Part shown: piece by piece, positions 10,733 to 25,708 of the stretch | How the letters are laid out: each line of letters starts with the position of its first letter | Numbering within the stretch: the first letter of the stretch is position 1 | Assembly: GCA_016873295.1 (NCBI GenBank) | Contig: VGXM01000006.1 | Coordinates: 44,525 to 108,524, forward strand | Length of the DNA stretch: 64,000 nucleotides | Direction: 5' to 3' | Source of the DNA: Phycisphaerae bacterium | GTDB taxonomy: Bacteria > Planctomycetota > Phycisphaerae > Phycisphaerales > UBA1924 | The notes under the pieces: generated by a model | Seen by the model: only the letters and a program-made list of their open reading frames with translations | Databases searched by the model: none | What the model was told of the DNA's origin: nothing | Translations under genes and position numbers: made by a program

Positions 10733-10784
10733 CGCAAGCCCCCGCGGCCCGCGACATCATAGGTTCCGCCTCGTGCCAACCCGT

Positions 10785-11120: not shown

Positions 11121-11271
11121 GTCTGCCTCCTGAACGGGGGCGCCTCGGGCGCTCCCGTGGGTGCATCGACCGCGACGCCCACCGCCGACCGTCCGAGGCC
11201 CCAGAACCGCGCCCGACCGTTCCATCGGGATCGATCAAGCGGGCCGCACCATCGGCCGATAACACCGCCCG

Positions 11272-12348
11272 GTGGAGATCTCGGTGGTCATCCCGACGCG
11301 GAGGCGCGCCGCCAAGCTCGCGGCCTGCCTGGCCAGCCTGGCGGCCCAGGACATGCCCCGCGATCGCTTCGAGGTGCTCGTGGGGTTCGACGGCCCGGAC
11401 CCGGACGCCGCGGCCCGGGCGGGCGACGCTTGGCGTCACGCCGGCGGCGATCCCGCGTCGCTCCGCCTGTCCCAGTTCGACCGGGTCGGCTACCAGGCGG
11501 TGCGCAACCTGCTCCTGCCCGAGGTGCGGGGCCGGATTCTGCTCTCGACCAACGACGACGTGGTCGCCGATCGCTCGTTCGTGCGGACGCACGCGGCGGC
11601 CCACGCCGGGCGCTGCGCCATCGTCTCGGGCGACTCGCCCTGGCGGGTGCACCAGCCCGACCGCCTCTTCGACCGAATGATCCGCGAGACGTCCATGGTC
11701 TTCTTCCTCGACCGCATGGACGACACGGACCCGGCCCGCGACTGGGGCTTCCGGCACGCCTGGGGCCTCAACATGTCCACCCCCACCGACGCGGTGCGAG
11801 CGGTCGGCGGGTTCGTGGTGCTCCCCGGTCACTACGGCTACGAGGACACCGAGCTGGCCCACGCCCTCGCCGCCCGGTTCGGCGCCCCGGTGCTCTTCCG
11901 CCCGGAGGCCCGCGTGGAGCACGACCACCGCATGGAGCCGGAGGACTACCTCCAGCGCGAGTACCGCCTGGGGTTCGCCGCCGTCGGCCTGGCCCTCCAG
12001 CGCCCCGACTGCGCCCGCGCGATCTTCAACCGCGACATTCTGTCGAGCGACGAGATCGAGTACTCGAGGCAGTTCATCGCCCGCGAGCACCGCGGCGCCG
12101 CGGGCGCGCTCGCCGCCTTCGCGACCCTCGCCGACCTCCCCGCCTCCACGCTCGACGCCCCCCAGGGGCGGGCCCTGACCACGCTCCTCTACCAGCAGCA
12201 CCTGCCCCTGAAGCGCTGGTGCTGGCGGCGCGGGCTGCTCGACTCGTTCGAGGGGCGCGCCTGCGACCCCGCCCGCGCCCTCCAGTCCATCGCCGCCCCG
12301 CCCCCCCCTGCCCGCGACGCCGACCGCCACCGGCGCCGGTCGGCCTAG
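11272..12348 (+). CDS. glycosyltransferase family 2
   Basis: A GTG start gives VEISVVIPTRRRAAKLAACLASLAAQDMPRDRFEVLVGFDG...LSTNDDVV, a GT-A fold with the DxD region. Confidence 0.8.
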   Translation: MEISVVIPTRRRAAKLAACLASLAAQDMPRDRFEVLVGFDGPDPDAAARAGDAWRHAGGDPASLRLSQFDRVGYQAVRNLLLPEVRGRILLSTNDDVVADRSFVRTHAAAHAGRCAIVSGDSPWRVHQPDRLFDRMIRETSMVFFLDRMDDTDPARDWGFRHAWGLNMSTPTDAVRAVGGFVVLPGHYGYEDTELAHALAARFGAPVLFRPEARVEHDHRMEPEDYLQREYRLGFAAVGLALQRPDCARAIFNRDILSSDEIEYSRQFIAREHRGAAGALAAFATLADLPASTLDAPQGRALTTLLYQQHLPLKRWCWRRGLLDSFEGRACDPARALQSIAAPPPPARDADRHRRRSA

Positions 12349-12357
12349 AGGTCCCCC

Positions 12358-13050
12358 ATGCTCCTCGTCGTCTGCGGCATGCCGCGCTCGGCCTCGACGC
12401 TCCAGTACCAGCTCGTCAGCGAGATCGTCGAGCGCACGGGCGCCGGTCGCCGCCTGGGGTGGGACTGGCCCGCCGCGTCGCCCGGCATGGCCGACGCCCC
12501 GCGCCCCATGCACGTGGTCAAGGTGCACGAGCCCAACCCGTCCTTCGAGTCGCGCCTCGACCCGCGCTTCCTTCGGTACTTCTACACCTACCGCGACGTG
12601 CGCGACGCGGCGGCGTCGGTGGCGCAGTGGAAGGGCCCGGCCCACGGCACGCCCGAGGCCGCCGCCCAGTGGATCCGGTGGGCCGACCACTTCACCGGCC
12701 GCCCCGGCTCGCTGCGCTCTCGCTACGAGGACTGGACGCGGGACATCCCGGGCGAGATCCGGCGCGTCGAGTCGTTCCTGGGCCTTGCCCTTCCCGAGCC
12801 CGACCGCCGCTCGCTCGCCCAGACGCTCTCCATCGAGGGCCAGAAGGACCTGATCGAGCGCGAGCTGGTGTCGGCCGGGCGCGACCTGGACCCCCGCTCG
12901 CTGGTGTGGAAGCAGCAGATCCAGGACGCCCGCGTCGGCAAGTGGCGCACGTTCTTCGATCGGGCGACGCTCGACCGGTTCGACGCCCTCTGCGGCGAGT
13001 GGCTCGCCGCCCACGGCTACGAACGCTTCCGCGTGCCGCGCGTCGCCTGA
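12358..13050 (+). CDS. sulfotransferase-family protein
   Basis: MLLVVCGMPRSASTLQYQL matches the PAPS 5'-phosphosulfate-binding P-loop (PKSGTT-like). The length is about 230 aa. Confidence 0.7.
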   Translation: MLLVVCGMPRSASTLQYQLVSEIVERTGAGRRLGWDWPAASPGMADAPRPMHVVKVHEPNPSFESRLDPRFLRYFYTYRDVRDAAASVAQWKGPAHGTPEAAAQWIRWADHFTGRPGSLRSRYEDWTRDIPGEIRRVESFLGLALPEPDRRSLAQTLSIEGQKDLIERELVSAGRDLDPRSLVWKQQIQDARVGKWRTFFDRATLDRFDALCGEWLAAHGYERFRVPRVA

Positions 13051-13057
13051 CGATCCG

Positions 13058-14071
13058 TTACGCCGCGGCCCCGTACAGACGGACGACCTCGATCCCGCGC
13101 TCGCGCAGCGGAAGGCTCGCCTCCCACAGTTGTGCCTCATGGAAGTGTGACGAGAGGACCACGGCGTCAACGCCGAGCGATCCGGCGCGATCGGCGGAGA
13201 TGATCGGCACCCCCTGGAGCCGCGTGCCTTCCAGTGATGGGTCGTCGTCGAGGATGGCCACGGGCCGCGGCGGCATCACGCGCCCCGGCGCGAGCGCGGC
13301 GCGGGTGTGGCGCCCGGCGCCGTACAGCGCCACGCGCGCCCGCCCGCGCTGGACGCACTCGCAGATCGCTCGCGCCACGCGCGCGCGATAGCCGGCTTCG
13401 TAGGCGCGCTCGGGATCTTCACGCAGCCACTCCAGGGCCTCGGACCGCAACCACAGCCCGTCGACGCAGATCGTCTGATACTCCGCCCCCTGCACCCACA
13501 CTTCGTGCAGTTGGTGCAGCAGGAAGCCCCGGCTCCGCAGGTGCAGGTCGATCTCCGAGAACGTCGCCGCACCCGCGTACTCGGGCACCATCTGCGCCTC
13601 GGAGTTCACCGCCAGCGCCGTGCCGACCAGCCGTTCGGCGCCTCGGAGCACGTCGAGCTCCAGTCCCTGCACGTCGATCTTGATCAGGTCCGCACGGGGC
13701 ACGCCGGCATCCACGGCCCAGTCGTCGAGGCGGCGCACCGGCGCTTCGATCTCCTCCACCGTCTCGATCGCGCCGCCGTGGTAGGCCAACCCGCGCTCGC
13801 TCGGAGGCAGCACGCTCGAGAAGCGCGCGTCGCCCGTGACGCGGAACCGCGCCGTCCCGTTCGCGTTTCCCGCCGCCATGCGCACGGGCTGAATCGCGGG
13901 GCACTGGCGCGCCGCCCCCACAAGACCCGCGAACGACGCGGGTGTCGGCTCGAAGGCGTGGATCGTGGCGTGCGGGAACTGGCTCGCGATCCGGCGCGAC
14001 ACGTCCCCCACGTGGGCGCCCACGTCGAGCACGGTGATCGGGTGCGACCACTCGATCACGCGCTGCAGCAT
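13058..14071 (-). CDS. FkbM-family SAM-dependent methyltransferase with a C-terminal 95-aa module shared with the next two genes
   Basis: MLQRVIEWSHPITVLDVGAHVGDVSRRIASQFPHATIHAFEPTPASFAGL is the FkbM methyltransferase core. The C-terminal module is RARVALYGAGRHTR...ILDDDPSLEGTRLQGVPIIS...GVDAVVLSSHFHEAQLWE...GIEVVRLY. The ATG is at complement 14069-14071. The Arg-rich N-terminal extension of ORF 13058..14419 is rejected. Confidence 0.8.
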   Translation of the reverse strand: MLQRVIEWSHPITVLDVGAHVGDVSRRIASQFPHATIHAFEPTPASFAGLVGAARQCPAIQPVRMAAGNANGTARFRVTGDARFSSVLPPSERGLAYHGGAIETVEEIEAPVRRLDDWAVDAGVPRADLIKIDVQGLELDVLRGAERLVGTALAVNSEAQMVPEYAGAATFSEIDLHLRSRGFLLHQLHEVWVQGAEYQTICVDGLWLRSEALEWLREDPERAYEAGYRARVARAICECVQRGRARVALYGAGRHTRAALAPGRVMPPRPVAILDDDPSLEGTRLQGVPIISADRAGSLGVDAVVLSSHFHEAQLWEASLPLRERGIEVVRLYGAAA

Positions 14072-14118
14072 CGAGTACGCGTCGCGATGCAACTGGGGCA
14101 CGATCAGACTCCTCGCCG

Positions 14119-15567
14119 TCAGGCGGCCCTCTGCACCGCCCCCGGCGCGTACAGCCGAACGACTTCGACGCCGGCCCTCCGGAACGCCTCCGACCGACGC
14201 CAGAGCGCCTCCTCGTGCGCGTCCGACGAGAGCACCACTGCATCCAGCCCCATCCGCAGGGCTCGCTCCGCGGGCACGATCTCCACTCCGAACAGGCTCC
14301 CGCCGGCCCGCGCGGGGTCGTCGTCGATGATCCCCGCGATCGGCACCGGGCTCTCGCCGACCGCGGGTCCCAGGTCGCGCGTGTGAGCCCCCGCGCCATA
14401 CAGGGCGACGCGCCGGCATCCAACGCCCGCCAACCGCTGCAACGCCCGCGCCATGCGCTCGTTCTTCTCCGCGGCGTAGGGCCCGTACACGCGCATCACC
14501 TCGACGCGCCCGCCGTCAAAGAGCGGCCCGGTCGGGCGCCACGCCTCGATCTCCTGGGGCGGCGCCGCCACCAGCGCCGCGTCCGGGCCCAAAGCCGCCG
14601 CTTCGCTCTGCGTTACCACCGGGTATCCCCACAGACGGCTGCCGGCACGCCGGTCGTCGACAATGCACGCAATCTCCACCGGCGGCTCGCGGAGCGCCGC
14701 CGCCGCGCTGCGCGTGAACTCGCCCGCCCCGACCAGCGCGATCCGCCGCTTCCCGTGCTCGGCGCAGCGGGCCAGGGCCCGCTCCATGCTCGTGTTCCAG
14801 GCCTCGCGGGCACGCTCCTGCTCCAGCCACCATGCCATCCGCTTCTCCCACAGCCTCACCGGGTCGGCCAGGATCGGCTCGGGGTCGAAACGCCGATCGA
14901 CGCCCAAGGGCCCGTGCCCGGGGAACCCTCGCCACATCCTGGAGATGTACAGACGGCAGTCGTCGATGTCGCGCGCCTCGATCATCGAGCGCGATTCGTG
15001 CTGGGCCCGCTCGTCGGCTCCTCCCCGCCGGTAGTGGTCGTGAAAATGCGTGAGGTCAGGGCGGGTCCAGAGCGCGCCCAGGCACCGCGCGACCCAGTAC
15101 AACTCATAGTCGCCCCAGTTGTGGAAATACCCCCCCCACAGCGGGCCGCGCCCCCCATACATCGCGTCCACCCACCGCCGCCCGAGGAACGGGCTCCCGC
15201 AGTAATGACGCGCCCAGTTGTAGTCGTCGCCGTGGGGCTGCATCACGCCGAAACCGTCGGGGAATCGGGAGTAGAACTGCTCCGCCAGCTCCTGGGCGGT
15301 GTGACCCGGGTCGGGCTCCATGTCGTCACCGCCCGTCACGATGAGCGACGCCGACGCCGGCACGACCTCCTTGCAGAGCACGTTCACCGCGGTCGCCCAG
15401 CCCTCATACCGATCGCCGTGGACGACGACGTCGGCGTGAGGGCAGGCGAACCGCACCTTGTCCTGCAGGAGCGCTACGCGATAGCCGCGCTCCTTCCACT
15501 TCGGCAGCGTCTTGGCCGCCATGTCCGGGTACGCCGTCGGAATCGCCAGCCAGACCTCGTGCTCCAC
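14119..15567 (-). CDS. uncharacterised glycosyltransferase-like protein (paralog B) with two tandem copies of the shared C-terminal module
   Basis: A GTG start with GGAGG RBS gives VEHEVWLAIPTAYPDMAAKTLPKWKERGYRVALLQDKV...LIVTGGDDMEPDP...GVMQPHGDDY...GSPFLGRRWVDAMYGGRGPLWGGYFHNWGDYELYWVARCLGALW. It has 60-70% identity to the next gene. The two C-terminal module copies are RRIALVGAGEFTR...VDDRRAGSRLWGYPVV... and RRVALYGAGAHTR...IIDDDP...DAVVLSSDAHEEALW...GVEVVRLY. Confidence 0.7.
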   Translation of the reverse strand: MEHEVWLAIPTAYPDMAAKTLPKWKERGYRVALLQDKVRFACPHADVVVHGDRYEGWATAVNVLCKEVVPASASLIVTGGDDMEPDPGHTAQELAEQFYSRFPDGFGVMQPHGDDYNWARHYCGSPFLGRRWVDAMYGGRGPLWGGYFHNWGDYELYWVARCLGALWTRPDLTHFHDHYRRGGADERAQHESRSMIEARDIDDCRLYISRMWRGFPGHGPLGVDRRFDPEPILADPVRLWEKRMAWWLEQERAREAWNTSMERALARCAEHGKRRIALVGAGEFTRSAAAALREPPVEIACIVDDRRAGSRLWGYPVVTQSEAAALGPDAALVAAPPQEIEAWRPTGPLFDGGRVEVMRVYGPYAAEKNERMARALQRLAGVGCRRVALYGAGAHTRDLGPAVGESPVPIAGIIDDDPARAGGSLFGVEIVPAERALRMGLDAVVLSSDAHEEALWRRSEAFRRAGVEVVRLYAPGAVQRAA

Positions 15568-15575
15568 GCCGCCTC

Positions 15576-16691
15576 CTACGCCGCATCGCCGAACCACACG
15601 TCGCCCCGCCCGTCGTACATCCGCACCACGGGGATCCCCGCGTCGCGGAACACCGCGCTGTTGTCCCACAGCCGGGGCTCGATGCTGTTGGAGCTGAGCA
15701 CCACCGCCCCGGGCTGACGCCCCAGCGCTTCCTCGCGCGAGACGATCGGGTAGTTCCACAGGCGCGAGCCGTGCAGCCGCTCGTCGTCGTCGATGATGCA
15801 CTCCACCCGCACCGGCGGGTCGATCAGCACCGACCCCAGCCCGCGCGTGTGCTTCCCCGCCCCGTACAGCGCCACCCGCGCAAACCCCCGCGATCGGCAC
15901 CCCTCCAGCGCCTCCCGCGCCCGACCCGTCCACGAGCGGTTCAGCAGGTCCGACGCGTACAGGTTCACCCAGTGCGCCTCCGCCAGACGCGCCGTGTCCG
16001 CCTCCAGCGGCGACAGGTCCAGCGGCCGACCCCCCCCGATCGGCTCGTGACCGGGGAACCCCGTCCACGCACGCGACAGGTACAGCCGGCAGTCCGCCCG
16101 GTCACGCCCGTCGATCTTCGCCCTGAACTCCCCCTGCTCCCGCGGCAGGCGCGTGAAGTGCTCGTGATAATGCGACAGGTCCGCCCGCGACCACAGCGCC
16201 CCCATGCACCGGGCCACCCAGTAGATCTCGTTGTCGCACCAGTTGTGGTAGTAGCCGTCAAAGACCGGCCCACGACCGCCGTACATCGTGTCGATCCAGC
16301 GCCGACCGAAGAACGGACTGCCGCAGTAGTGCGGGGCCCGCAGGTACCCGTCGCCGTGCGGCTGCATCACCCCGAACCCGTCGGCGAATCGGGAATGGAA
16401 CTGCTCCGCCAGCTGCCCCGCCCAGTGGTTCGGATCGGGCCTCATGTCGTCGCCCCCGGTCACGACCAGCGACGCCGACCCCGGCACGACCTCCCTGCAC
16501 AGCCGGTTCACCGCCCAGGCCCACCCGCGGTAGTCGTCCACCCGCAGCACGCGGTCGGCCTCCGGGGCCTCGAACCGCACCCGGTCCTGCAGCAGCGCGA
16601 TCCGGTATCCCCGCTCCTTCCAGAGCGGCAGGTTCCGCCGGCACATCTCCGGCGACGCCGACGGGATCGCAAACCACACCTCGTGCCCCAA
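15576..16691 (-). CDS. uncharacterised glycosyltransferase-like protein (paralog C) with one copy of the shared C-terminal module
   Basis: A TTG start aligned to the GTG of paralog B gives (M)GHEVWFAIPSASPEMCRRNLPLWKERGYRIALLQDRV...LVVTGGDDMRPDP...GVMQPHGDGY...GSPFFGRRWIDTMYGGRGPVFDGYYHNWCDNEIYWVARCMGALW. The C-terminal module is ARVALYGAGKHTR...IIDDDERLHGSRLWNYPIVS...GAVVLSSNSIEPRLW...GIPVVRMY. Confidence 0.7.
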   Translation of the reverse strand: MGHEVWFAIPSASPEMCRRNLPLWKERGYRIALLQDRVRFEAPEADRVLRVDDYRGWAWAVNRLCREVVPGSASLVVTGGDDMRPDPNHWAGQLAEQFHSRFADGFGVMQPHGDGYLRAPHYCGSPFFGRRWIDTMYGGRGPVFDGYYHNWCDNEIYWVARCMGALWSRADLSHYHEHFTRLPREQGEFRAKIDGRDRADCRLYLSRAWTGFPGHEPIGGGRPLDLSPLEADTARLAEAHWVNLYASDLLNRSWTGRAREALEGCRSRGFARVALYGAGKHTRGLGSVLIDPPVRVECIIDDDERLHGSRLWNYPIVSREEALGRQPGAVVLSSNSIEPRLWDNSAVFRDAGIPVVRMYDGRGDVWFGDAA

Positions 16692-16866
16692 CGGACCCTC
16701 CGCGCAGTATCCCCCAACCCCCTATCGGCCTATCCCGCCGAACCCCTTGACCACACCCCCTCTCCTCCCGGAGTCCCGATCACGCCCCCCCCGGTGCTCT
16801 CCGGGGCGAGCGCCGCTGGTACCGCGGCTTGCTCGGGCTCGCGACGCGCGAAACGAAGTGCCCATC

Positions 16867-17051
16867 ATCAAGGCCCGACTCAGCGGCCGCTGTAAACCAG
16901 ACCGCCCGACTCTCTCCCGCCCGCCGAGAGTCTCGCCCCGAGAGGACCGCCGGGCCCCCGTTTCGCCAAGGGGTTGGCCCACACGCCGAACCACAGAGCG
17001 CTCTCGCGAGCGCGCCCCCTCCGCCCGCAGCGCGATTCCCCACGCGGTTTG
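16867..17051. repeat. copy 1 of a 185-bp direct repeat (R1), about 360 bp upstream of the tail-fibre-like gene
   Basis: catcaaggcccgactcagcggccgctgtaaaccagaccgcccgactctctcccgcccgccgagagtctcgcc...cgctctcgcgagcgcgc...acgcggtttg is near-identical (2-3 mismatches) to 19831..20016. It contains the perfect 12-bp palindrome cagcggccgctg, the hairpin gactctc-N11-gagagtc and the palindrome ctcgcgag. Weaker similarity extends to about 16849..17062. Confidence 0.85.
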
Positions 17052-17341: not shown

Positions 17342-17414
17342 GTTGTGTCCGCTTTGCCGCCAGGCCCGTCGTTGATTGGCCTGGGAAGAGGTCCGAACCA
17401 ACGGAGGTCATGCC

Positions 17415-19685
17415 ATGAAGCGGTTCATCGCCACGCTGGGCTTGGTATCCATTCTCTTCTCTGCAGACGGCGTGGCCCAGACACCCCTGGGAACGGGTTT
17501 CACGTACCAAGGGGAACTGAACAACGCCGGCAACCCCGCCAACGGGGCCTATGACCTGCGGTTCCGGCTCCTCAACGCCGCCGCGGGCGGAAGCCAGGTC
17601 GGCAATACCCTCTGCGCCGACAACGTTGCGGTGACCAACGGCCGCTTCACGGTTTCGCTGGACTTCGGCGCACAGTTCGCCGGGCAGCAGCGGTTCCTTG
17701 CCATCGAAGTTCGGGCCGACACGGGGCTCGACTGCTCCAACGCCGCCGGCTTCACCGCCCTCCTGCCTCTGCAGGAACTCAGCGCCGTCCCCAACGCCGC
17801 CTTCGCCCTCGCCGCCACCACGGCCACGACCGCGACCACCGCGAGCAACGCCACGCTGCTCAACGGGCAGGGGGCGTCCTTCTATCAGAACGCCTCCAAC
17901 CTCACGGCCGGCACACTCCCCGGTGGCCTGCTCAGCGGGATCTACTCCAGCCCCCTGACCTTCAGCAACGCGGGCAACGCTTTCACCGGGTCGTTCTCGG
18001 GCTCGGGCGCGGGTCTGACAGCCCTCAACGCCTCGAACCTGGGAACCGGAACGCTCGCCGACGCACGCCTCTCCACCAACGTCGCCCTGCTCAGTACCCC
18101 CCAGGCCTTCACCGCCGGCAAGACGTTCTCCGGGGGGCTTTCGACCAACGCCTTCACCCTGACCACGGGCGCGGCGGCGGGCAGCGTGCTCCGCTCCGAC
18201 GCGGGCGGCGCGGGGACCTGGCAGCCCCCTCCGCCCCCATCCGGCGCGGCGGGCGGCGGCCTGGCGGGGACGTATCCCAATCCCTCGATCGCCGCCGATG
18301 CGGTCCTGAGCGGGAACCTCGGTAGCGATCCCGCGTCGCTCGGAAGGGTCTCCGGGGGCGCGGTGTACACCAACGGCGATTTCGTGGGGATCGGCACCGC
18401 CACGGGCATCGGCGCCGCCCGCTTCGTGGTCAGCCAGAACACGGGCGGTTTCGGCGGGATGTATGTCAACACGTCGGCCGCAACGGGGTTGCCGTTCTAC
18501 GGCTACGCCCAGGGCGGCTCCATCGCCGCGTATCACTACCTCGACGGCGGGGAGGGCAACAAGTGGAAACTCATCAATGGCGGGGTCCGGATGACGGTGA
18601 CGAGCGGCGGCGATGTGGGCATTGGAACCACGAGCCCCACGTCCCGGCTTGACGTGGTTGGAAGCGGAGGGGACGCGTTGCTGGTCACCAACACCGGAAC
18701 CGGCCGCGGGGCCACCATCAACGCCCAGACCGGCACGGCGCTCTGGGCCAACACGACCAGCGGCATGGCGGGCGTCGATGCGCGCAACGCGAATCCATCG
18801 GGCATGGGGGTCTATGGCCTGGCCAGCGCGAGCACCGGCACGGCCTACGGGGTAGCGGGCCAGAGCCTCAGCGCGGGAGGGATTGGCGTCCTGGGCCACG
18901 CCAGCGCCGGCGGCGGTGAGACCTACGGCGTCGCGGGCCGGTGCGACAGCACCGGAGGGGCGGGCGTCTTCGGCCAGGTCACCGCCACGACCGGCGCCAA
19001 CTACGGCGTGTTCGGCCGGAGCGACAGCACGTCCGGGACCGGTGTCTACGGCGCGGCCTGGGCCAACAGCGGCACGATCTACGGCGTGCACGGCTACGCG
19101 AGCGCCTCCAGCGGCGGGTACGCTGTCTTCGCCAGCGGCCGATCCGGGGCCAGCGGCACCAAGTCGTTCCGCATCGACCACCCTGACGACCCCGAGAACA
19201 AGTACCTGCTCCATTACAGCACCGAGTCGCCCGAGATCCTCAACGCGTACTCGGGCACGATCGCCCTGGACGCCGCTGGCGGGGCCGTGGTCGAACTGCC
19301 GCGCTACTTCGCCAAGATCAACAGGAATCCGCGGTACACGCTCACCGCCGTGGGCGCTCCCATGCCGATGCTGCACGTGGCCGAGGAGATTGACGAGGCC
19401 GCGCTGATCTCAGGGGCCACGGCCGGACCCGCCGACGTGGCGCCCCTCTGCTCGTTCCGGATCGCGGGCGGAGCCCCCGGGCGCAAGGTCTCCTGGCGCG
19501 TCGAGGCGGTCCGCAACGACCGCTGGATCCAGCAGCACGGCGCGCCCGTCGAGGTCGAGAAGTCGGGCGCCGAGAAGGGCACGTACCAGCATCCGGACCT
19601 CTACGGCCGGCCCGCCACGGAGGGCATCGGGTTCCGTCCCAATCTCAGCGGTGGCAAGGCTCCGCCCAGCCCGGACCATCCGTAG
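17415..19685 (+). CDS. secreted glycine-rich tail-fibre-like surface protein (beta-helical repeat protein)
   Basis: An acggaggt RBS precedes the ATG. The signal peptide is MKRFIATLGLVSILFSADGVAQ. Long Gly/Ser/Thr/Ala/Asn repeat tracts include LTAGTLPGGLLSGIYSSPLTFSNAGNAFTGSFSGSGAGLTALNASNLGTGTLADARL. The segment VGIGTTSPTSRLDVVG is typical of phage tail-fibre-like proteins. Repeated YGVxG motifs occur (TAYGVAGQS, ETYGVAGRC, ANYGVFGRS, TIYGVHGYA). The C-terminal domain reads KSFRIDHPDDPENKYLLHYSTESPEILNAYSGT. The overlapping antisense ORF 17244..19376 is rejected. Confidence 0.8.
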   Translation: MKRFIATLGLVSILFSADGVAQTPLGTGFTYQGELNNAGNPANGAYDLRFRLLNAAAGGSQVGNTLCADNVAVTNGRFTVSLDFGAQFAGQQRFLAIEVRADTGLDCSNAAGFTALLPLQELSAVPNAAFALAATTATTATTASNATLLNGQGASFYQNASNLTAGTLPGGLLSGIYSSPLTFSNAGNAFTGSFSGSGAGLTALNASNLGTGTLADARLSTNVALLSTPQAFTAGKTFSGGLSTNAFTLTTGAAAGSVLRSDAGGAGTWQPPPPPSGAAGGGLAGTYPNPSIAADAVLSGNLGSDPASLGRVSGGAVYTNGDFVGIGTATGIGAARFVVSQNTGGFGGMYVNTSAATGLPFYGYAQGGSIAAYHYLDGGEGNKWKLINGGVRMTVTSGGDVGIGTTSPTSRLDVVGSGGDALLVTNTGTGRGATINAQTGTALWANTTSGMAGVDARNANPSGMGVYGLASASTGTAYGVAGQSLSAGGIGVLGHASAGGGETYGVAGRCDSTGGAGVFGQVTATTGANYGVFGRSDSTSGTGVYGAAWANSGTIYGVHGYASASSGGYAVFASGRSGASGTKSFRIDHPDDPENKYLLHYSTESPEILNAYSGTIALDAAGGAVVELPRYFAKINRNPRYTLTAVGAPMPMLHVAEEIDEAALISGATAGPADVAPLCSFRIAGGAPGRKVSWRVEAVRNDRWIQQHGAPVEVEKSGAEKGTYQHPDLYGRPATEGIGFRPNLSGGKAPPSPDHP

Positions 19686-19830: not shown

Positions 19831-20016
19831 CATCAAGGCCCGACTCAGCGGCCGCTGTAAACCAGACCGCCCGACTCTCTCCCGCCCGCCGAGAGTCTCG
19901 CCCCGAGAGGACCGCCGGGCCCCCGTTTCGCCAAGGGGTTGGCCCACACGCCGAACCACAGAGCGCTCTCGCGAGCGCGCCCCCTCCGCCCGCAGCGCGG
20001 TTTCCCACGCGGTTTG
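19831..20016. repeat. copy 2 of the 185-bp direct repeat (R2), immediately downstream of the tail-fibre-like gene and upstream of the CgeB-like glycosyltransferase
   Basis: Near-identical to 16867..17051. The two copies are 2964 bp apart in the same orientation. Confidence 0.85.
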
Positions 20017-20661
20017 CGGGGGGCTCCCGCGGGCCCTCATCCATGCGGGCAACTCTCGCCTGCACGACCTCTCAGGACGCGCCCCCGGCTCGGCTGGCGC
20101 ACGTGTTTGGCACCCCTCACAAGCCGCGAGGATGGTACAAACCCCCCGAAACTCCGATCCGGCGGGCCCCGCCGGGCCGATCCAACTCCGCAGCCCGTGT
20201 CCACTCCTCCCGCGCCAACCCGGCGTCTCGACGCCCCCGCGCTCCCAACGAGCCCCACGCGCGAGCGTGGGGACTCCGCGCCTGCCCCCCACTGCGCCTC
20301 TCCTGCCCCGTGGGCCGCGCTCCACCAGTCGCTGGCCCGCTGGCGCGCTGCCGCGACCGACGCCGACGCGCTCCTCGCCGCGGCCCAGGCGCTGACCAAC
20401 CTCGCCCTCACCACCGCCGCGCGCGACCACCTGGCCCTGCTCCCGCAACCCGGCGCCCCGCCTGATTCGAACGCCGCGCCGCCGGACGCGCCGATCCCCG
20501 CCGACCATCTCATCGCGACCGCCCAGGCCAACGCGCGCGCTCTCTCGGAACGCGGCGTCGAACTGTCCCTCCCTTTCGACGCCTGGCGGGCACGGCTCGC
20601 CCACACCTTCTTCTACCGGGCCGCCGACGGCAACGTCGTCAGGCGCAGGCTCCTGCCCGGC

Positions 20662-22650
20662 TTGCCCCCCTCCTGGTCGCGCTTCAACGACGACCTCGCC
20701 GCCGCCCAGAGCGTGCCGCTGGCCCTCGCCGACCCTTCCGACCCCATCGGGCGCGACGCCAAGCCCGTGATTCTCGAGGGCCTCGACCCACCCTGGCTCT
20801 TCGGGCGGGTCATGCGCCTCACGCCCCCCAGCCCCGCCGGCTACCAGCCCTGGGTCGTGCTCGTGCAGGCCGACCCGCTCCAGTTCCTCGACGGCCTGGC
20901 CCTCGCCGACCTGCGCACGGAACTGGCCGACCCGCGCCTGTCGGTCTTCGTGGGCCCGACCGCCGGCTCGGGCGTGCTGGCGTTCCTTCGAGCCCGTCTC
21001 GGCACGTCGATCCAGGCCACGCCCCTGCGCCTCCCCACCACCGCCGCCCGCACCAATCCGCCCCTCGAACAGGTCCTGACCCAGGCCCTGCGCGAGCAGG
21101 AGGCGGATCTGGCGTCCCTCCTGGCGCAGAACCGGCGCACCTACGCCGGTCGCGACGCCACGTGGTGGTCGCGGCGGTTCTCCGATCCGGGCTCGACGCC
21201 GCTGCGGGCCCTGATCCCGACGACGCGGTACTCCACCTTCGTGCGCCACTCGGCCCAGGACCTGGCCGCCGCCCTGCGGGAAGCCGGCTGGCGCGCCGAG
21301 GTCCTGGAGGAGCCCGACCCATCCAGCCAGCACTCCACCAACGGGTACGCCCGGGCCGTGCGCGCGCTGGAGCCCGACCTGGTGGTGCTGATCAACTACG
21401 AGCGGGTCACGGTGGCGCACGCGATGCCGGCGGAGACGCCCGTGCTGACCTGGGTACAGGACTCGCTGCCGCACCTCTTCGAGGGGCGGGCGGGCGGCCC
21501 GCTGGACCTGGTCGCCGGGTGCATCTCGGCGGGGGCGATGGAGGCGCGGGGGTATCGGCCCGGGCACGCGCGGGAGGCGCCGGTGCCGGCGCGGGCGGCG
21601 AAGTTCCACGTGGGACACGTCGACGCGAATGCGCGCGCGCGGCTGACGTGCGACGTCGCCTACGTCGGGCACCAGAGCCGGACGCCCGAGGAGTTCCTCC
21701 GGGCGGGGCTGGCGGCGGTGGGGGACGACCCGATCATGCACCGGGTGCTGGAGTCGCTGTACGTGCGCACGAGCGACGCCGCGGCCCGGGTGCTGGACGT
21801 GAACCTCTTCGACGCCCTGGCGGGGGCGGTGCACGGGGCGTGGTGGGCCGCGACGGGGGAGGCGCCCCCGGCGGAGCGGGCCCGGCGGCTGCTGTTCGGG
21901 CACGCGGTGCCGCTGGCGGACCGGCTCCTGAGGCACACCACGCTGGCGTGGGTCGCGGAGATCTGCCGTCGGCGGGGGTGGTCGTTCCACCTCTACGGGA
22001 CCGGGTGGGAGCGGCACCCGACGCTCTCGGCGTACGCGCGCGGGGCGGTGGAGCACGGGGAGGAGCTGCGTGGCGCGTATTCGTGCGCGCGGGCGCACGT
22101 GCACGTCTCGTCGACGGCGATGGCGCACCAGCGGGTGTTCGAGTGCGCCCTGTCGGGGGGGCTCCCGCTGTGCCGGCTGGCGCTGCCGGAGCTGCAGCAA
22201 TGGTCGCTGGTCGGGGCGTGGTGGGCGATGGAGCGCGCGGGGACGCGGCCCCGGCACGACCGCGAGGCGTTCCCCACGCTGGCGGTCGCCGACTCGCCCG
22301 AACTGATGATGGCGACGCGGGTGCGCCAGCTCGTGCGGGGCGGCGAGGCGCCCGCGGTGGTCGATCCGAACACCTGGCCCGGGTGGCTGCGGGCGGCCCT
22401 GCGGCGCGACGACCCTCCCGACCGGAGGGTGATGGCGGCATGGGTGATCGGGGACCTGTCCGAATCGTGCTTCTGGGACCGGGCGAGCCTGGAGGCCCGG
22501 CTGGAGAGGGCGGTGACGCGCCCGGAGTGGCGCGACGACCTGTCGCGGGGGATCGCGGAGCGGGCGTGCACGGCCGAGGCGTTCGCGCGGTCGATCCCGG
22601 GGTGGGTGGCGCGGGCCTTCCACGCGGGGACGGCGGCGGCGGCGGCGTAG
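20662..22650 (+). CDS. CgeB-like (DUF3880 plus Glyco_trans_1_2-type) glycosyltransferase; the start is uncertain
   Basis: The C-terminal region ...PVLTWVQDSLPHLFEGR...DVAYVGHQSRTPEEFL...LYGTGWERHPTLSAYARGAVEHGEELRGAYSCARAHVHVSSTAMAHQRVFECALSGGLPLC resembles CgeB/spore-maturation-type GT1-like domains. The frame is open back to 19939 but overlaps repeat R2. The first canonical in-frame start after a protein-like stretch is TTG 20662 (GTG 20713 and ATG 20809 also possible). The protein-like sequence from about 20290 may indicate an unusual start or a frameshift. Confidence 0.55.
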   Translation: MPPSWSRFNDDLAAAQSVPLALADPSDPIGRDAKPVILEGLDPPWLFGRVMRLTPPSPAGYQPWVVLVQADPLQFLDGLALADLRTELADPRLSVFVGPTAGSGVLAFLRARLGTSIQATPLRLPTTAARTNPPLEQVLTQALREQEADLASLLAQNRRTYAGRDATWWSRRFSDPGSTPLRALIPTTRYSTFVRHSAQDLAAALREAGWRAEVLEEPDPSSQHSTNGYARAVRALEPDLVVLINYERVTVAHAMPAETPVLTWVQDSLPHLFEGRAGGPLDLVAGCISAGAMEARGYRPGHAREAPVPARAAKFHVGHVDANARARLTCDVAYVGHQSRTPEEFLRAGLAAVGDDPIMHRVLESLYVRTSDAAARVLDVNLFDALAGAVHGAWWAATGEAPPAERARRLLFGHAVPLADRLLRHTTLAWVAEICRRRGWSFHLYGTGWERHPTLSAYARGAVEHGEELRGAYSCARAHVHVSSTAMAHQRVFECALSGGLPLCRLALPELQQWSLVGAWWAMERAGTRPRHDREAFPTLAVADSPELMMATRVRQLVRGGEAPAVVDPNTWPGWLRAALRRDDPPDRRVMAAWVIGDLSESCFWDRASLEARLERAVTRPEWRDDLSRGIAERACTAEAFARSIPGWVARAFHAGTAAAAA

Positions 22651-22716
22651 ATCGCGGTGGAAGCGGGGCCTGAAAGGCCCCGCCCCGGTCTGCAAGGTCC
22701 CGGCCCGGATGAGTCG

Positions 22717-24372
22717 ATGGAGGGTGCGATGGCGGTCGGCGGCAAGATCGTGGACCTTCCGACGCTCTTGGAGCGGCGCGAGTCGCTGCGGGCGCGGGGG
22801 CTGCGCCTGGTGCAGTGCCACGGGTGCTTCGACATCGTGCATCCCGGGCACATCCGCTATCTGCGCTACGCGCGGGGGCTGGGCGACGTGCTGCTCGTCT
22901 CGATCACGGGCGACCGGGAGATGGTCAAGGGGACGGGCCGCCCGCTGATCCCGGAGGAGCTGCGGGCCGAGAACCTGGCGGCCCTGGACTGCGTGGACTG
23001 GGTGTACGTGGAGCCGCGTCCGACGGCGGTAGAGCTGCTGGCGCGGGTGCGCCCGGACGTGTACGTCAAGGGGCGGGAGTACGAGTTCAACGACGACCCG
23101 CGGTTCCGGGCGGAGCGGCGCGAGGTGGAGGGCGCGGGCGGCAGGGTGGTGTTCAGCTCGGGGGACGTGGTGTTCAGCTCGTCGGCGCTGATCGCGGCCC
23201 TGGAGCACTCGGCGGACCCGTACCAGCAGCGGCTGCGGCAACTGCACGCGTCGCCCGACCTGGAGGCGTCGCGGCTGGACGCGCTGCTGGCGTCGTGCCG
23301 GGGCCGGCGCCTCGTGGTGGTGGGCGAGACCATCAACGACACCTACGTCTTCTGCGACCGCCCCGAGGTCGCGGGCGAGAGCCCGATCATGACGCTGCGG
23401 CCCGTGGAGGCCAGGCGCTACGACGGCGGGGCGGCGGTGATCGCCCGGCACGCGGCGGCCTTGGGGGCCAGCCCCGTGCTGGTGACGGCCCTTCCCGACG
23501 GCCCGGAGCGGAGCGATGCCGAGGCCTTCGCCGGGCGGATGCGGGCCCAGGGCGTCGAGGTGCGGTCGATCGACGCGGGGGAGCGGATCCCCGAGAAGCA
23601 GCGCCTGCTGGTGGGGGCGCAGAAGGTGATGAAGCTGGACCTGTTCCGCCCCTACGCGCTGGACGCGGCCCTGCAGGACCGGTTCGTCGGGCTGGCGGTG
23701 GAGGCGGCCGGGAGCGGGTGCGACGCGGCGATCCTGGCCGACTTCGGGCTCGGGCTCTTCTCGACCGCGCTCGTGGAGCGGATGTGCGCGACGCTCCGTC
23801 CCCTGGCCCGCACGCTCTCGGCGGACGTCTCCGGTCGGCGTTCGAGCCTGCTCTCGATGCGGGGCGTGGACCTGGTGTGCCCGACGGAGGGGGAGCTGCG
23901 CGACGCGACCCAGTGCTTCGACGAGAGCATCCCGGCGGCGGTGGTGTCGCTCCTGGCGCGGACGGGCGCGAAGCGCGCGATCGTGACGCTGGGCTCGGAC
24001 GGGCTGCTGGCGTGCGAGCCCGCGGGCGCGCCCCTCGCCGCCTCCGATGCGCCCACGGCGCCCGACACCGGCGCGTTCGTCTCGCGGCTGCGGAGCGAGC
24101 ACGTCCCGGCCCTGGCGCCGCTGGCGCTGGACCCGCTGGGGTGCGGCGACGCGCTGCTGACGGTGGCGACGCTGGCGCTCTCGGGCGGGGGGTCGACGCT
24201 GGGCGCGGCGTACCTGGGCGCCGCCGCCGCCGCCGTGCAGGTCCAGCGGCTGGGCAACGGCGCCGTCTCGGCTTCGGACCTGCGCCAGTTGATGGCCCGC
24301 GTGCGCGAGGCGCGCCTGGCGTTCGTGAGCGAGGCGGAGGCCAGGCCGCGTCGGCGGTCGGCGGCGGGATAG
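22717..24372 (+). CDS. bifunctional sugar-1-phosphate nucleotidyltransferase and PfkB-family sugar kinase (HldE/RfaE-like, domain order reversed)
   Basis: The N-terminal part LVQCHGCFDIVHPGHIRYLRYARGLGDVLLVSITGDREMVKGTGRPLIPEELRAENLAALDCVDWVYV is a cytidylyltransferase-like HxGH domain (RfaE domain II). The C-terminal part RLVVVGETINDTYVFCD...DPLGCGDALL is a ribokinase/PfkB domain (RfaE domain I). Alternative starts are 22657 and 22729. Confidence 0.8.
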   Translation: MEGAMAVGGKIVDLPTLLERRESLRARGLRLVQCHGCFDIVHPGHIRYLRYARGLGDVLLVSITGDREMVKGTGRPLIPEELRAENLAALDCVDWVYVEPRPTAVELLARVRPDVYVKGREYEFNDDPRFRAERREVEGAGGRVVFSSGDVVFSSSALIAALEHSADPYQQRLRQLHASPDLEASRLDALLASCRGRRLVVVGETINDTYVFCDRPEVAGESPIMTLRPVEARRYDGGAAVIARHAAALGASPVLVTALPDGPERSDAEAFAGRMRAQGVEVRSIDAGERIPEKQRLLVGAQKVMKLDLFRPYALDAALQDRFVGLAVEAAGSGCDAAILADFGLGLFSTALVERMCATLRPLARTLSADVSGRRSSLLSMRGVDLVCPTEGELRDATQCFDESIPAAVVSLLARTGAKRAIVTLGSDGLLACEPAGAPLAASDAPTAPDTGAFVSRLRSEHVPALAPLALDPLGCGDALLTVATLALSGGGSTLGAAYLGAAAAAVQVQRLGNGAVSASDLRQLMARVREARLAFVSEAEARPRRRSAAG

Positions 24373-24628
24373 GGGCGGGATGGGGGAGGGTGAGGAGTGC
24401 CTTCTGCGAGGCCGGTCTTCACCACGGAGCACACGGAGAGCACAGAGGAAGAAGACTCTTGAGTTCAAGGCATCCCGAACTTCGCGTTTGCGTGGCGTCG
24501 GGTCATGGCCGGGTCCTGGGATGGCCTCCGCACGGGCGGGAAACCCGTGGGAGCGGGGGGCGGAGAGCTGGGACACCGCCCGGAGGCCGGTGCCGCCGAG
24601 CGGTGGGGGATCGCATGCGGGGGCCGCG

Positions 24629-25708
24629 ATGATCACGTACGTCATTCCGACCCGAGACCGTCACGGGCGCCTGTCGGCGACGCTGGACGCGATCTCGGCG
24701 CTGGGGCGGCAGCGCGACGCGGAGGTCATCGTCGTCGACAACGCGTCGGCGGAGGCGGTCGTGGCCCCGGTGCGGCTGGCGTCGGGCGTGCCCGTGCGGG
24801 TCATCCGGCTGGGGCGGAACCTCGGGGCGGCGGCCCGCAACGTGGGCGTGCGGCACGCGGCGGGCGACTGGGCGGTGATGCTGGACGATGACTCGTACCC
24901 GCTGGACCTGGGGTTCGTCGGCGGGCTGCGCGGGGCGCCGGCGGAGGTGGCGGCGGTGTCGGCGGACATCCGGCTCTCGGGCGGGCGCGAGCAGGGCGGG
25001 CTGCCCGAGGTGTTCATCGGGTGCGGCGTGGCGATCCGCGTGCCCGTGTTCATCGCGCTGCGGGGCTACGACGCGGCGTTCGACTACTACGCCGAGGAAT
25101 ACGACCTGGCGGCCCGCATGCTCCTGGCGGGGTACCGCGTGGCGTTCGACCCGGCGTTCCGCGTGGAGCACGCCAAGGTGGCGCAGGGACGCGACATGGG
25201 GACGATCCTGTCGCGGCTGGTCCGCAACAGCGGGTGGGTGATCCAGCGGTACGCCCCGGCGGGGGAGCGGCGTGCCACGCTCCGCGCCCTGCGGCGGCGG
25301 TACCTCGCCATCGCGCGCAAGGAGTCGGCGGGGGCCGGGTGGGGCCGAGGGGCGATCGAGCTGCGGGCCACCATTCGGGGTCAGGTCCGCCGGGAGATGC
25401 CGCGGGGGCTGTGGGATCGCTTCACGGGCCTTTTCCACGCGCGCGAGGCGTTGCAGGCCGCGTTCCGCCGATCGCCGTTCCGAACCGCGACGCTGGTCGA
25501 TCCGGGGAAGAACCAGGAACTGGTGGCGCTGGCGCTGGCGGAGCTGGGCGTGAGGGTGGTCGCCGGGGACGCCGAGGCCCTGGTCATCGGGACGCTCTCG
25601 CCCGGGCCCATGCTCGATGCGCTGGAGCGCCGGGCGGGGTCGGGCGCGCGCGTCGTGGCCCCGTGGGGCGTCGCGGAGGCGATGGGCCCGGCCCGGCGCG
25701 CGGCCTGA
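24629..25708 (+). CDS. glycosyltransferase family 2
   Basis: MITYVIPTRDRHGRLSATLDAISALGRQRDAEVIVVDNASAE...AVMLDDDSYP is a GT-A fold with DxD. The ATG is at 24629. The upstream part of ORF 24380..25708 is rejected. Confidence 0.85.
   Translation: MITYVIPTRDRHGRLSATLDAISALGRQRDAEVIVVDNASAEAVVAPVRLASGVPVRVIRLGRNLGAAARNVGVRHAAGDWAVMLDDDSYPLDLGFVGGLRGAPAEVAAVSADIRLSGGREQGGLPEVFIGCGVAIRVPVFIALRGYDAAFDYYAEEYDLAARMLLAGYRVAFDPAFRVEHAKVAQGRDMGTILSRLVRNSGWVIQRYAPAGERRATLRALRRRYLAIARKESAGAGWGRGAIELRATIRGQVRREMPRGLWDRFTGLFHAREALQAAFRRSPFRTATLVDPGKNQELVALALAELGVRVVAGDAEALVIGTLSPGPMLDALERRAGSGARVVAPWGVAEAMGPARRAA

What the first reader, a model, noticed from the sequence alone, without database searches (positions are those of the whole stretch)
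13058..16691. A 95-aa C-terminal module shared four times by three consecutive enzymes of different catalytic type
The FkbM methyltransferase and the two GT-like paralogs all end in a conserved module with the pattern [AI]L[YV]GAG-x-[HF]TR...[IV][IV]DDD[PE]...G-x-x-[LW]-x-G-x-P[IV][IV]...G-x-DA[VA]V[LA]SS...E-x-x-LW...G[IV]-x-VVR[LM]Y. Paralog B carries two tandem copies. The GAGxxTR start resembles the nucleotide- or CoA-binding N-domain of NeuD/PglD-type sugar acyltransferases. A common appended module on a methyltransferase and on glycosyltransferases suggests a shared docking, oligomerisation or cofactor-binding function that assembles these enzymes into one complex. The N-terminal catalytic domain of the two paralogs (motifs VTGGDDM-x-PDP, GVMQPHGD, HNW-x-D-x-E-[IL]YWVARC) is itself not recognisable to me as a known CAZy family.
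Basis: seen in the sequence. Interest (0 to 1): 0.7.

Follow-up and report, generated by a model that had tools for sequence, protein, structure and literature searches.

The report
Shared nucleotide-binding-like module on glycan-tailoring enzymes
Three neighbouring sugar-modifying enzymes of a Phycisphaerae bacterium really do share a ~110-residue tail, but it is a divergent copy of a known small nucleotide-binding domain (the PglD N-terminal type) found on thousands of glycan enzymes, so it is a useful annotation, not a new kind of biology.

Summary
Three tightly packed minus-strand genes carry exactly four copies of one ~110-aa module. The genes are GT-like paralog A (15576-16691), paralog B (14119-15567) and an FkbM methyltransferase (13058-14101). 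The copies are 37-53% identical, with pairwise E-values of 1e-20 to 2e-28. The fusions are genuine: coding signal is continuous across the junctions, and the same fusions recur in more than 100 protein clusters from independent assemblies.

A profile search finds 5039 clusters carrying the module on GT2, GT4, several methyltransferase families, radical SAM and deacetylase enzymes, in one to four copies. The best-conserved residues (GAGxHT, DD, SS) sit where PglD-type enzymes hold UDP.

The most likely role is binding a nucleotide or the NDP of a nucleotide-sugar. Docking or dimerisation is not excluded.

The parts
15576..16691 (-). Paralog A gene (371 aa, TTG start): GT-A glycosyltransferase-like domain plus one module
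   Evidence: ORF list. GC3 is 0.83-1.0 throughout. The protein is 100% identical to P0003, an NCBI Phycisphaerae MAG hypothetical protein.
16029..16691 (-). GT-A fold catalytic domain of paralog A (residues 1-221; GDD motif at 80-82)
15606..15938 (-). Module copy A (residues 252-362 of paralog A)
   Evidence: Module HMM E = 1.2e-46. Four-way alignment A1.
14119..15567 (-). Paralog B gene (482 aa, GTG start 8 nt after the stop codon of A): GT-A domain plus two tandem modules
   Evidence: GC3 rises to above 0.9 at 15573, and GGAGG lies upstream of the GTG. 54% identical to A.
14905..15567 (-). GT-A fold catalytic domain of paralog B
   Evidence: N-domain HMM E = 3.4e-103.
14461..14802 (-). Module copy B1 (residues 256-369 of B). 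It is degenerate at the conserved loop positions (GAGEF, DDRR, VAAPP).
   Evidence: Module HMM E = 8.6e-37. Register and motifs are shown.
14128..14469 (-). Module copy B2 (residues 367-480 of B), with canonical motifs
   Evidence: Module HMM E = 6.7e-45. 53% identical to the FkbM copy and 50% to copy A.
13058..14101 (-). FkbM-family methyltransferase gene (347 aa, GTG start 17 nt after the stop codon of B) plus one module
   Evidence: P0123 is 100% identical at 347 aa. GAGGAG lies upstream of the GTG. PF05050 E = 2.6e-22 and TIGR01444 E = 2e-28.
13061..13396 (-). Module copy F (last 112 residues of the FkbM protein)
11272..13050 (+). Context: GT2 glycosyltransferase (11272-12348) and sulfotransferase (12358-13050), convergent with the operon
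   Evidence: Pfam PF00535 E = 3.3e-10 and PF00685 E = 6.7e-11.
19939..25708 (+). Context: 903-aa protein with a Glyco_trans_1_2 hit, an HldE-like sugar kinase/nucleotidyltransferase, and a GT2. These are conserved partners of the module-bearing genes in related loci.
   Evidence: Pfam scan. The same gene types lie next to the GT-A-module and FkbM-module genes in L001, L002, L004, L005 and L006.

Best explanation
The shared tail is a divergent member of a known small Rossmann-like nucleotide-binding domain superfamily. That superfamily includes the PglD/NeuD N-terminal domain, the cytoplasmic accessory domain of WbaP and PglF (PF13727), and the C-terminal domain of sugar C-methyltransferases. 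The module is a mobile accessory domain that evolution has attached to many cytoplasmic glycan-building enzymes.

In this conserved Phycisphaerae envelope-glycan operon it sits on two GT-A glycosyltransferases and on an FkbM O-methyltransferase. The catalytic domains do the chemistry. The module most likely binds a nucleotide: the NDP part of a nucleotide-sugar or nucleotide-linked intermediate, or a free nucleotide. It would use the glycine-rich GAGxHT loop after strand 1, the Asp-Asp pair after strand 2 and the Ser-Ser pair after strand 4. This is the way PglD-type enzymes hold UDP.

This would give successive enzymes of one pathway a common substrate handle or a common nucleotide signal. 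Self-association of the module, as in WbaP, may occur in addition.

Shown here: homology, fold, positions of the conserved residues, promiscuous architectures and conserved synteny. Inferred: ligand binding, the identity of the ligand, and whether the bound nucleotide is a substrate or a regulator.
For: Fold and homology:
- The AlphaFold2 model has pLDDT 91.3 and five beta-alpha units.
- Foldseek gives the same set plus Rex, KijD1, MtmC, PerB and WbaP.
- Profile against PDB sequences: 3nkl E = 1.8e-5 and 2py6 N-domain E = 0.02.
- Pfam PglD_N is passed by close relatives: P0247 at 44.7 bits, P0276 at 43.2 bits, P0243 at 32.9 bits, against a cut-off of 23.4. Methyltransf_14 is matched at up to E = 2.8e-18.

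Conservation:
- Across 193 module copies from 150 clusters, the most conserved polar residues are G26 (0.97), G28 (0.96), H30 (0.87), T31 (0.87), D50 (0.91), D51 (0.86), S82 (0.88), E87 (0.85) and Y108 (0.91).
- All of them lie directly after strands 1, 2, 4 and 5.

Experimental precedent:
[quoted passage not shown] - The isolated WbaP domain is stabilised by UMP, UDP and UTP (PMC10942596).

Distribution:
- 5039 clusters match at E <= 1e-3. Partners include GT4, GT2, FkbM, class I methyltransferases, Methyltransf_24, radical SAM and a polysaccharide deacetylase. All are glycan or nucleotide-sugar enzymes.
- Catalytic domains also occur without the module, as standalone GT-A proteins of 220-265 aa and FkbM proteins of about 250 aa. 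The module is therefore an add-on.
- Copies linked to GT-A and copies linked to FkbM are as similar to each other as copies within each class. This implies one shared constraint.
- An HldE-like nucleotide-sugar synthase is conserved in the locus.
Against: - No ligand binding was measured or modelled.
- The window copies fall just below the Pfam PglD_N threshold (22.4 bits against 23.4) and give no PF13727 hit in the local Pfam copy.
- GT-A and FkbM domains already have their own donor or cofactor sites. A second nucleotide site therefore needs a nucleotide-linked acceptor or an allosteric role, and neither is demonstrated.
- In tandem arrays one copy has often lost the loop residues. This fits a structural or dimerising role at least as well as a ligand-binding one.
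- In WbaP the related domain also makes most of the dimer contacts.
- The same fold binds NAD(H) in Rex and CoA in succinyl-CoA synthetase, so the ligand class is not fixed by the fold alone.
Confidence: 0.5

Rival explanations
1. Docking or oligomerisation module. The modules pair with each other, within or between chains, and so bring the two glycosyltransferases and the methyltransferase into one complex. Nucleotide binding would be absent or secondary.
For: - Every related locus examined encodes two to four module-bearing enzymes side by side: GT-A, FkbM, GT4, a GDSL-like protein and an unknown protein.
- One protein (P0243) fuses GT-A-module-FkbM-module in a single chain, a Rosetta-stone sign that the two enzymes work together.
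- Tandem copies are common (37 of 150 top hits have at least two copies), and one copy is often degenerate, as expected when a dimerising domain is duplicated.
- Modules on different partners are equally similar to each other.
- The related WbaP domain carries most of the dimer interface (PMC10942596).
Against: - The strongest conservation is in the canonical ligand loops of the fold, not on exposed helices.
- WbaP dimerises mainly through a beta-hairpin insertion, and the module model shows no such hairpin.
Confidence: 0.2
2. Allosteric nucleotide sensor. As proposed for the WbaP accessory domain, the module binds the nucleotide by-product of glycosyl transfer (UMP, UDP, GDP or ADP) or a nucleotide-sugar pool. 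It then tunes the attached catalytic domain, so that all enzymes of the pathway respond to one signal.
For: - The closest sequence-level match among solved structures is 3nkl (E = 1.8e-5), and it is also the top Foldseek hit.
- The WbaP domain binds uridine nucleotides, and UMP inhibits WbaP with an IC50 of 4.1 uM.
- This role explains why enzymes with complete active sites of their own carry an extra nucleotide-type domain, and why the module is optional.
Against: - In the other characterised relatives (PglD, PerB, VioB, TcaB9, KijD1) the domain forms part of the substrate site, not a remote regulatory site.
- No kinetic data exist for any member of this subfamily.
Confidence: 0.2
3. Artefact. 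The apparent fusions come from frameshifts, gene-calling errors or a mis-assembled tandem duplication, and the module is really a separate small gene.
For: A few short module-only proteins exist in the databases (111-155 aa). Several of them may be fragments.
Against: - GC3 is continuous across all junctions, and no stop codons interrupt the reading frames.
- About 100 clusters of GT-A-module proteins and about 37 clusters of FkbM-module proteins come from independent assemblies.
- B1 and B2 are only 42% identical and share no nucleotide similarity.
- Other GT-A-module-module proteins exist.
Confidence: 0.01

Closest known systems
PglD / NeuD / PerB / VioB N-terminal domain (Pfam PF17836, PglD_N)
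   Same: - It has the same small Rossmann-like fold and the same register of motifs: a YGA(G/S)xH loop after strand 1 and an Asp-Asp pair after strand 2.
- Those residues hold the UDP or other NDP of the sugar substrate in the crystal structures.
- Close relatives of the module pass the Pfam cut-off.
   Different: - Here the domain is C-terminal, or internal and tandem, and it is attached to GT-A, FkbM and many other enzymes, not N-terminal to a left-handed beta-helix acetyltransferase.
- The window copies score just under the cut-off.
- The module has an extra N-terminal helix and conserved SS, ExxLW and RLY motifs.
C-terminal domain of sugar C-3'-methyltransferases TcaB9, KijD1 and MtmC (Pfam PF08484, Methyltransf_14)
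   Same: - The match covers the N-terminal helix as well.
- It is a nucleotide-sugar-handling accessory domain fused C-terminally to a SAM methyltransferase, which is the same logic as FkbM plus module.
- From my own knowledge, not verified here, this domain provides most of the dTDP-sugar binding.
   Different: - Sequence identity is 14-17%.
- The window copies are sub-threshold (16.4 bits against 23.5).
- The partner methyltransferase is a different family, and there is no zinc-binding N-domain.
Cytoplasmic accessory domain of WbaP-type phosphoglycosyl transferases and PglF/WbpM dehydratases (PF13727; PDB 3nkl, 8t53)
   Same: - It is the best sequence-level PDB match (3nkl, E = 1.8e-5, 24% identity).
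- It is an accessory domain on glycan-pathway enzymes.
- It has been shown experimentally to bind uridine nucleotides and to contribute to dimerisation.
   Different: - Those proteins are membrane-anchored, and the domain follows a four-helix transmembrane bundle. The window proteins have no hydrophobic segment.
- No beta-hairpin swap element is seen in the module model.
- No PF13727 hit was returned.
FkbM methyltransferase structure 2py6 (Methylobacillus flagellatus, structural genomics)
   Different: The domain order is reversed, with the module N-terminal (the same order is seen in P0292). No functional study was found.
GT-A fold glycosyltransferases (GT2-like; WrtF, DPMS, SpsA)
   Different: Identity to any solved GT is only 8-16%. 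There is no Pfam or NCBIfam match. The named homologues are all from Phycisphaerae or other Planctomycetota.

Membership tests
Pfam PF17836 PglD_N | Score at or above the curated gathering cut-off (23.4 bits) | tested here: inconclusive
   The best window score is 22.4 bits (E = 1.8e-4, paralog B); copy A and copy F give no hit. Relatives found with the module profile pass: 44.7, 43.2 and 32.9 bits.
Pfam PF17836 PglD_N | Small parallel beta-sheet Rossmann-like fold | tested here: met
   [not shown]
Pfam PF17836 PglD_N | Nucleotide-contact residues: Gly-rich loop with Ser/His after strand 1, and an Asp-Asp pair after strand 2 | tested here: met
   GAGxHT and DD are conserved at 0.86-0.97 across 193 copies. 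The corresponding residues are Ser13, His15, Asp35 and Asp36 in PglD (PMC8040287). The register comes from the Pfam match to profile positions 1-49.
Pfam PF17836 PglD_N | Position N-terminal to a left-handed beta-helix acyltransferase domain | tested here: not met
   Here the domain is C-terminal to GT-A or FkbM domains. No hexapeptide-repeat domain is detected.
Pfam PF08484 Methyltransf_14 (C-methyltransferase C-terminal domain) | Score at or above the cut-off (23.5 bits), and fold match to TcaB9 | tested here: inconclusive
   [not shown]
PF13727 / WbaP-PglF accessory domain | Sequence-profile match, and uridine-nucleotide binding | tested here: inconclusive
   The profile hits 3nkl at E = 1.8e-5, and 3nkl is the top Foldseek hit. 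No PF13727 hit was returned by hmmscan at E <= 1. Nucleotide binding is not testable with these tools.
Pfam PF22674 C2185-like_N | Pfam hit on the module region | not testable with these tools
   This family is listed in the precomputed annotation of many homologues, some of them without a weak mark. hmmscan against the local Pfam copy never returned it. Score and cut-off could therefore not be checked.
GT-A fold glycosyltransferases | GT-A fold with an acidic DxD-type motif after strand 4 | tested here: met
   [not shown]
Pfam Glycos_transf_2 (GT2) or any other curated GT family | Profile match | tested here: not met
   No Pfam or NCBIfam family matches the N-domain at E <= 1. No PDB sequence match either.
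FkbM methyltransferase family (PF05050 / TIGR01444) | Profile match above the cut-off | tested here: met
   80.2 bits against a cut-off of 22.7, and 99.7 bits against 37.7.

The most novel reading that the evidence does not exclude
In PVC-group bacteria the module could be a pathway 'address tag'. Every tailoring enzyme of one envelope glycan (glycosyltransferases, methyltransferases, esterase-like proteins) would carry the same domain. The domain would either hold a common nucleotide-anchored intermediate, so that the glycan is built and decorated while still on a nucleotide, or plug the enzymes into a shared scaffold. The conserved 800-900-aa protein next to them is a candidate scaffold. The arrangement would be analogous to docking domains in polyketide assembly lines.
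Probability: 0.12. Interest if true: 0.65.

Novelty: new member of a known kind. Interest (0 to 1): 0.35.

Why it matters
The result gives a usable annotation for a domain left blank or sub-threshold in hundreds of Planctomycetota/Phycisphaerae 'hypothetical proteins'. These are GT-A glycosyltransferases and FkbM methyltransferases carrying a PglD_N-type nucleotide-binding accessory domain.

It also shows that this small domain is far more promiscuous than its Pfam name suggests. It is found on GT2, GT4, GT-A, several methyltransferase families, radical SAM and deacetylase enzymes, often in tandem inside 1000-2000-aa multi-enzyme proteins.

If the ligand were identified, it would help to work out the substrates of a conserved but uncharacterised envelope-glycan locus of Phycisphaerae. 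It would also flag the GT-A N-domain as a candidate new glycosyltransferase family.

It does not reveal a new kind of mechanism.

Tried and rejected
- Searching the 5.8-billion-protein word-indexed database with the four-copy module profile gave only 2 hits, because of the word prefilter. The exhaustive representative search was needed to see the real spread.
- PDB sequence search with the N-domain found nothing meaningful.
- phmmer of an intermediate module (P0247 copy 1) against PDB sequences, meant to obtain a residue-level alignment to PglD or PerB, found nothing useful.
- The AlphaFold-database fold library was not available, so the nearest predicted structures to the N-domain were not surveyed.
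- The TcaB9 structure paper could not be retrieved. The role of its C-terminal domain is therefore cited from my own knowledge and from PDB entry titles only.
- Literature searches for 'C2185', '2PY6 + FkbM' and Phycisphaerae glycan genes gave nothing relevant.
- Rejected: frameshift or assembly artefact.
- Rejected: a full NAD-dependent dehydrogenase. The module is only about 110 aa and has no catalytic C-terminal half.
- Rejected: partner-specific module subfamilies, or a recent copy from the neighbouring gene. The GT-A-linked and FkbM-linked profiles score all copies about equally, and nucleotide similarity between copies is at most 71% over about 100 nt.


Full report
**Source and gene structure**

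The window has about 72% G+C. Paralog A is 100% identical to a hypothetical protein of a Phycisphaerae metagenome-assembled genome (P0003).

Third-codon-position GC and start-site context define three tightly packed minus-strand genes:
- Paralog A: 15576-16691, 371 aa, TTG start.
- Paralog B: 14119-15567, 482 aa. Its GTG start lies just downstream of a GGAGG and 8 nt after the stop codon of A.
- FkbM-family methyltransferase: 13058-14101, 347 aa. Its GTG start lies downstream of a GAGGAG and 17 nt after the stop codon of B. The protein is identical to database protein P0123.

The longer ORFs that the ORF list gives for B and FkbM include 5' stretches with non-coding GC3 values. None of the three proteins has a hydrophobic segment; the maximum 19-residue Kyte-Doolittle mean is 1.4 or lower. 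They are therefore soluble cytoplasmic enzymes.

**Checking the observation**

The four proposed module copies align with 25 invariant columns. Pairwise BLASTP gives 37-53% identity and E = 1e-20 to 2e-28.

An HMM built from 46 module sequences finds exactly these four copies in the six-frame translation of the whole window, with E = 4e-40 to 1e-46. An HMM of the paralog N-domain finds exactly two copies. Paralogs A and B are 54% identical over 361 residues. The FkbM domain is confirmed.

Three refinements apply. The gene starts differ from the longest ORFs, as given above. The module is about 110 aa, because a conserved N-terminal helix belongs to it. The first copy in B has lost several of the otherwise conserved residues.

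**Artefact test**

- GC3 stays at 0.8-1.0 through every junction between a catalytic domain and a module.
- The tandem copies in B are 42% identical at protein level and have no detectable nucleotide similarity. They are old, not an assembly duplication.
- About 100 clusters of GT-A-module proteins (360-387 aa) and about 37 clusters of FkbM-module proteins come from independent NCBI, JGI, ENA and Logan assemblies.

The fusions are genuine.

**What the module is**

Direct Pfam and NCBIfam scans of the window proteins give only sub-threshold matches: PglD_N at 22.4 bits against a cut-off of 23.4, Methyltransf_14 at 16.4 bits against 23.5, and the NeuD family N-terminus at E = 2e-7.

An AlphaFold2 model of the FkbM copy, made with a 46-sequence alignment, is confident (pLDDT 91.3). 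It shows an N-terminal helix followed by five beta-alpha units.

- The succinyl-CoA synthetase CoA-binding domain.
- Rex.
- VioB.

Foldseek returns the same families plus KijD1, MtmC, PerB and WbaP. A sequence profile of the module hits 3nkl at E = 1.8e-5 and the N-terminal domain of 2py6 at E = 0.02.

The module is thus a divergent member of a known superfamily of small Rossmann-like nucleotide- or CoA-binding domains that accompany nucleotide-sugar enzymes.

**How widespread it is**

The exhaustive profile search of 1.84 billion representative proteins finds 5039 clusters at E <= 1e-3, 1291 at E <= 1e-10 and 100 at E <= 1e-30. The proteins are 111-2006 aa long and carry one to four copies at N-terminal, internal or C-terminal positions.

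I classified the top 150 with my own HMMs:

| Architecture | Count |
|---|---|
| Module plus other, unclassified sequence | 70 |
| FkbM-module | 25 |
| Module-module (plus other sequence) | 24 |
| GT-A-module | 16 |
| GT-A-module-module | 6 |
| GT-A-module-FkbM-module (P0243, 740 aa) | 1 |

Pfam scans of 77 of these proteins show the partner domains:

| Partner domain | Proteins |
|---|---|
| GT4 / GT1 | 15 |
| Class I methyltransferases | 9 |
| FkbM | 8 |
| GT2 | 7 |
| Methyltransf_24 | 5 |
| Radical SAM | 3 |
| Polysaccharide deacetylase | 1 |

In seven of the 77 the module itself passes PglD_N (best E = 2e-11). In five it matches Methyltransf_14 (best E = 3e-18). Large proteins such as P0255 (2006 aa: three modules, two GT2, one GT4 and a methyltransferase) use the module between catalytic units. 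Named members are from Phycisphaerales, other Planctomycetota and Lentisphaeraceae.

Precomputed annotation also lists Pfam PF22674 ('C2185-like_N') on many homologues. hmmscan against the local Pfam copy never returned that family, so I could not test it.

**Conserved residues and mechanism**

Across 193 module copies from those 150 clusters, the most conserved polar positions (numbered on the FkbM copy) are G26, G28, H30 and T31 (the GAGxHT loop after strand 1), D50 and D51 (after strand 2), S82 and S83 (after strand 4), E87, and Y108 (after strand 5). All of them line the C-terminal edge of the parallel sheet, which is the usual ligand crevice of this fold.

[quoted passage not shown] Uracil and ribose are held by the Asp-Asp pair (Asp35/Asp36 in PglD) and by the loop Ser. 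His15 of PglD lies next to the sugar (PMC8040287). The Pfam match puts the window's GAGxH and DD motifs in the same register (profile positions 1-49).

For the related WbaP accessory domain, the isolated domain is stabilised by UMP, UDP and UTP, UMP inhibits the enzyme, and the domain also carries most of the dimer contacts (PMC10942596).

I therefore consider nucleotide binding the most likely molecular function (about 0.7 when the substrate-handle and allosteric versions are summed). The substrate-handle version is slightly preferred, because it is what the better-characterised relatives do. Which nucleotide is bound cannot be told from sequence. An HldE-like sugar kinase/nucleotidyltransferase is conserved in the locus, so an ADP- or other NDP-activated sugar is available there.

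**Evidence bearing on the docking idea**

The module-bearing genes cluster together:

| Locus | Module-bearing genes |
|---|---|
| L002 (Phycisphaeraceae) | GT-A-module, GT-A-module, FkbM-module, FkbM-module |
| L004 | GT-A-module, GT-A-module, FkbM-module |
| L005 | FkbM-module, GT-A-module, GDSL-like-module |
| L006 | GT-A-module, FkbM-module, unknown 371-aa protein with module |
| L001 | GT-A-module, GT4-module |

Most of these loci also contain a protein of about 800-900 aa with a weak Glyco_trans_1_2 hit, a GT2 and often the HldE-like gene. L006 shares the NadA-PilZ flank with the window.

The P0243 fusion shows that the GT-A and FkbM enzymes are functionally coupled. Profiles built separately from GT-A-linked and from FkbM-linked modules score the window copies about equally, and each copy's nearest neighbours are a mix of both classes. 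The modules are therefore under one shared constraint whatever their partner.

Tandem copies are frequent, and one copy has often lost the loop residues. All of this fits a common ligand or a common protein partner equally well. It does not discriminate between the two, so docking or dimerisation stays a live rival at about 0.2.

**The paralog N-domain**

G80 and D82 are invariant and D81 nearly so, directly after strand 4, which is where the DxD motif lies in GT-A enzymes. Other conserved positions include Q110, P111, S125, P126, D153, E155, H176, H178 and R207.

No Pfam, NCBIfam or PDB sequence match exists. The family has about 300 clusters, and all named members are Phycisphaerae or other Planctomycetota. 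It also occurs without the module as proteins of 220-265 aa.

**Comparison with what is known, and verdict**

The module works like, and is homologous to, the PglD_N, PF13727 and Methyltransf_14-C family of nucleotide-handling accessory domains. A solved structure (2py6) already shows an FkbM enzyme carrying such a domain, in the opposite order.

What is new is descriptive:
- This subfamily is appended C-terminally, and in tandem, to GT-A and FkbM enzymes.
- It is conserved in a Phycisphaerae envelope-glycan locus.
- It has a very broad range of partner domains.
- It accompanies an unclassified GT-A family.

I found no publication on this in the library searched. I rate it a new member of a known kind and of moderate-to-low interest (0.35). 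The finding is real and useful for annotation, but not surprising to a specialist in glycan biosynthesis. The most novel reading not excluded is a pathway-wide address or handle domain that organises assembly on a nucleotide-linked intermediate or on a scaffold. I give that about 12% probability.

Noticed in passing
window 22657-24372 (+); L004 16104-17750; L006 17363-18985: A bifunctional HldE-like protein has its domains in reversed order: the cytidylyltransferase-like domain is N-terminal and the PfkB sugar kinase is C-terminal. It is conserved next to the module-bearing genes in related Phycisphaerae loci.
   Followed up: partly
window 19939-22650 (+); L001 7440-9854; L002 11090-13492; L005 11201-13594; L006 14621-17152: A protein of about 800-900 aa, with only a weak Glyco_trans_1_2 hit in its C-terminal third, is conserved beside the GT-A-module and FkbM-module genes. 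Most of its length is unannotated.
   Followed up: partly
window 17376-19685 (+): A 769-aa protein has a signal-peptide-like N-terminus, Gly/Thr/Ala-rich repeats and no Pfam hit. It lies between the two halves of the glycan cluster in the window. It was not seen at that position in the related loci.
   Followed up: no
window 9515-11225 (-); L006 6876-8482: The quinolinate synthase NadA and a small PilZ-domain protein flank the cluster in both the window and locus L006. The locus therefore occupies a syntenic chromosomal position in different Phycisphaerae.
   Followed up: partly
L001 13801-15312; L005 10149-11216; L006 11476-12591: In related loci the same module sits at the C-terminus of a GT4 glycosyltransferase, of a GDSL-lipase-like protein, and of an unannotated 371-aa protein.
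   Followed up: partly
protein P0243 (740 aa, Logan contig of 8279 bp): A single polypeptide has the architecture GT-A-module-FkbM-module. It is in effect a fusion of a paralog-A-type gene and the FkbM gene.
   Followed up: partly
window 12358-13050 (+): A sulfotransferase-domain gene ends 8 nt from the convergent FkbM gene. It was not seen in the five related loci examined, which suggests a lineage-specific sulfation step.
   Followed up: no
window 10696-13391 and 13307-16895, both strands: Very long ORFs (up to 872 aa) overlap the real genes on the opposite strand or in other frames. They are by-products of the 72% G+C content; their GC3 is 0.4-0.6.
   Followed up: yes
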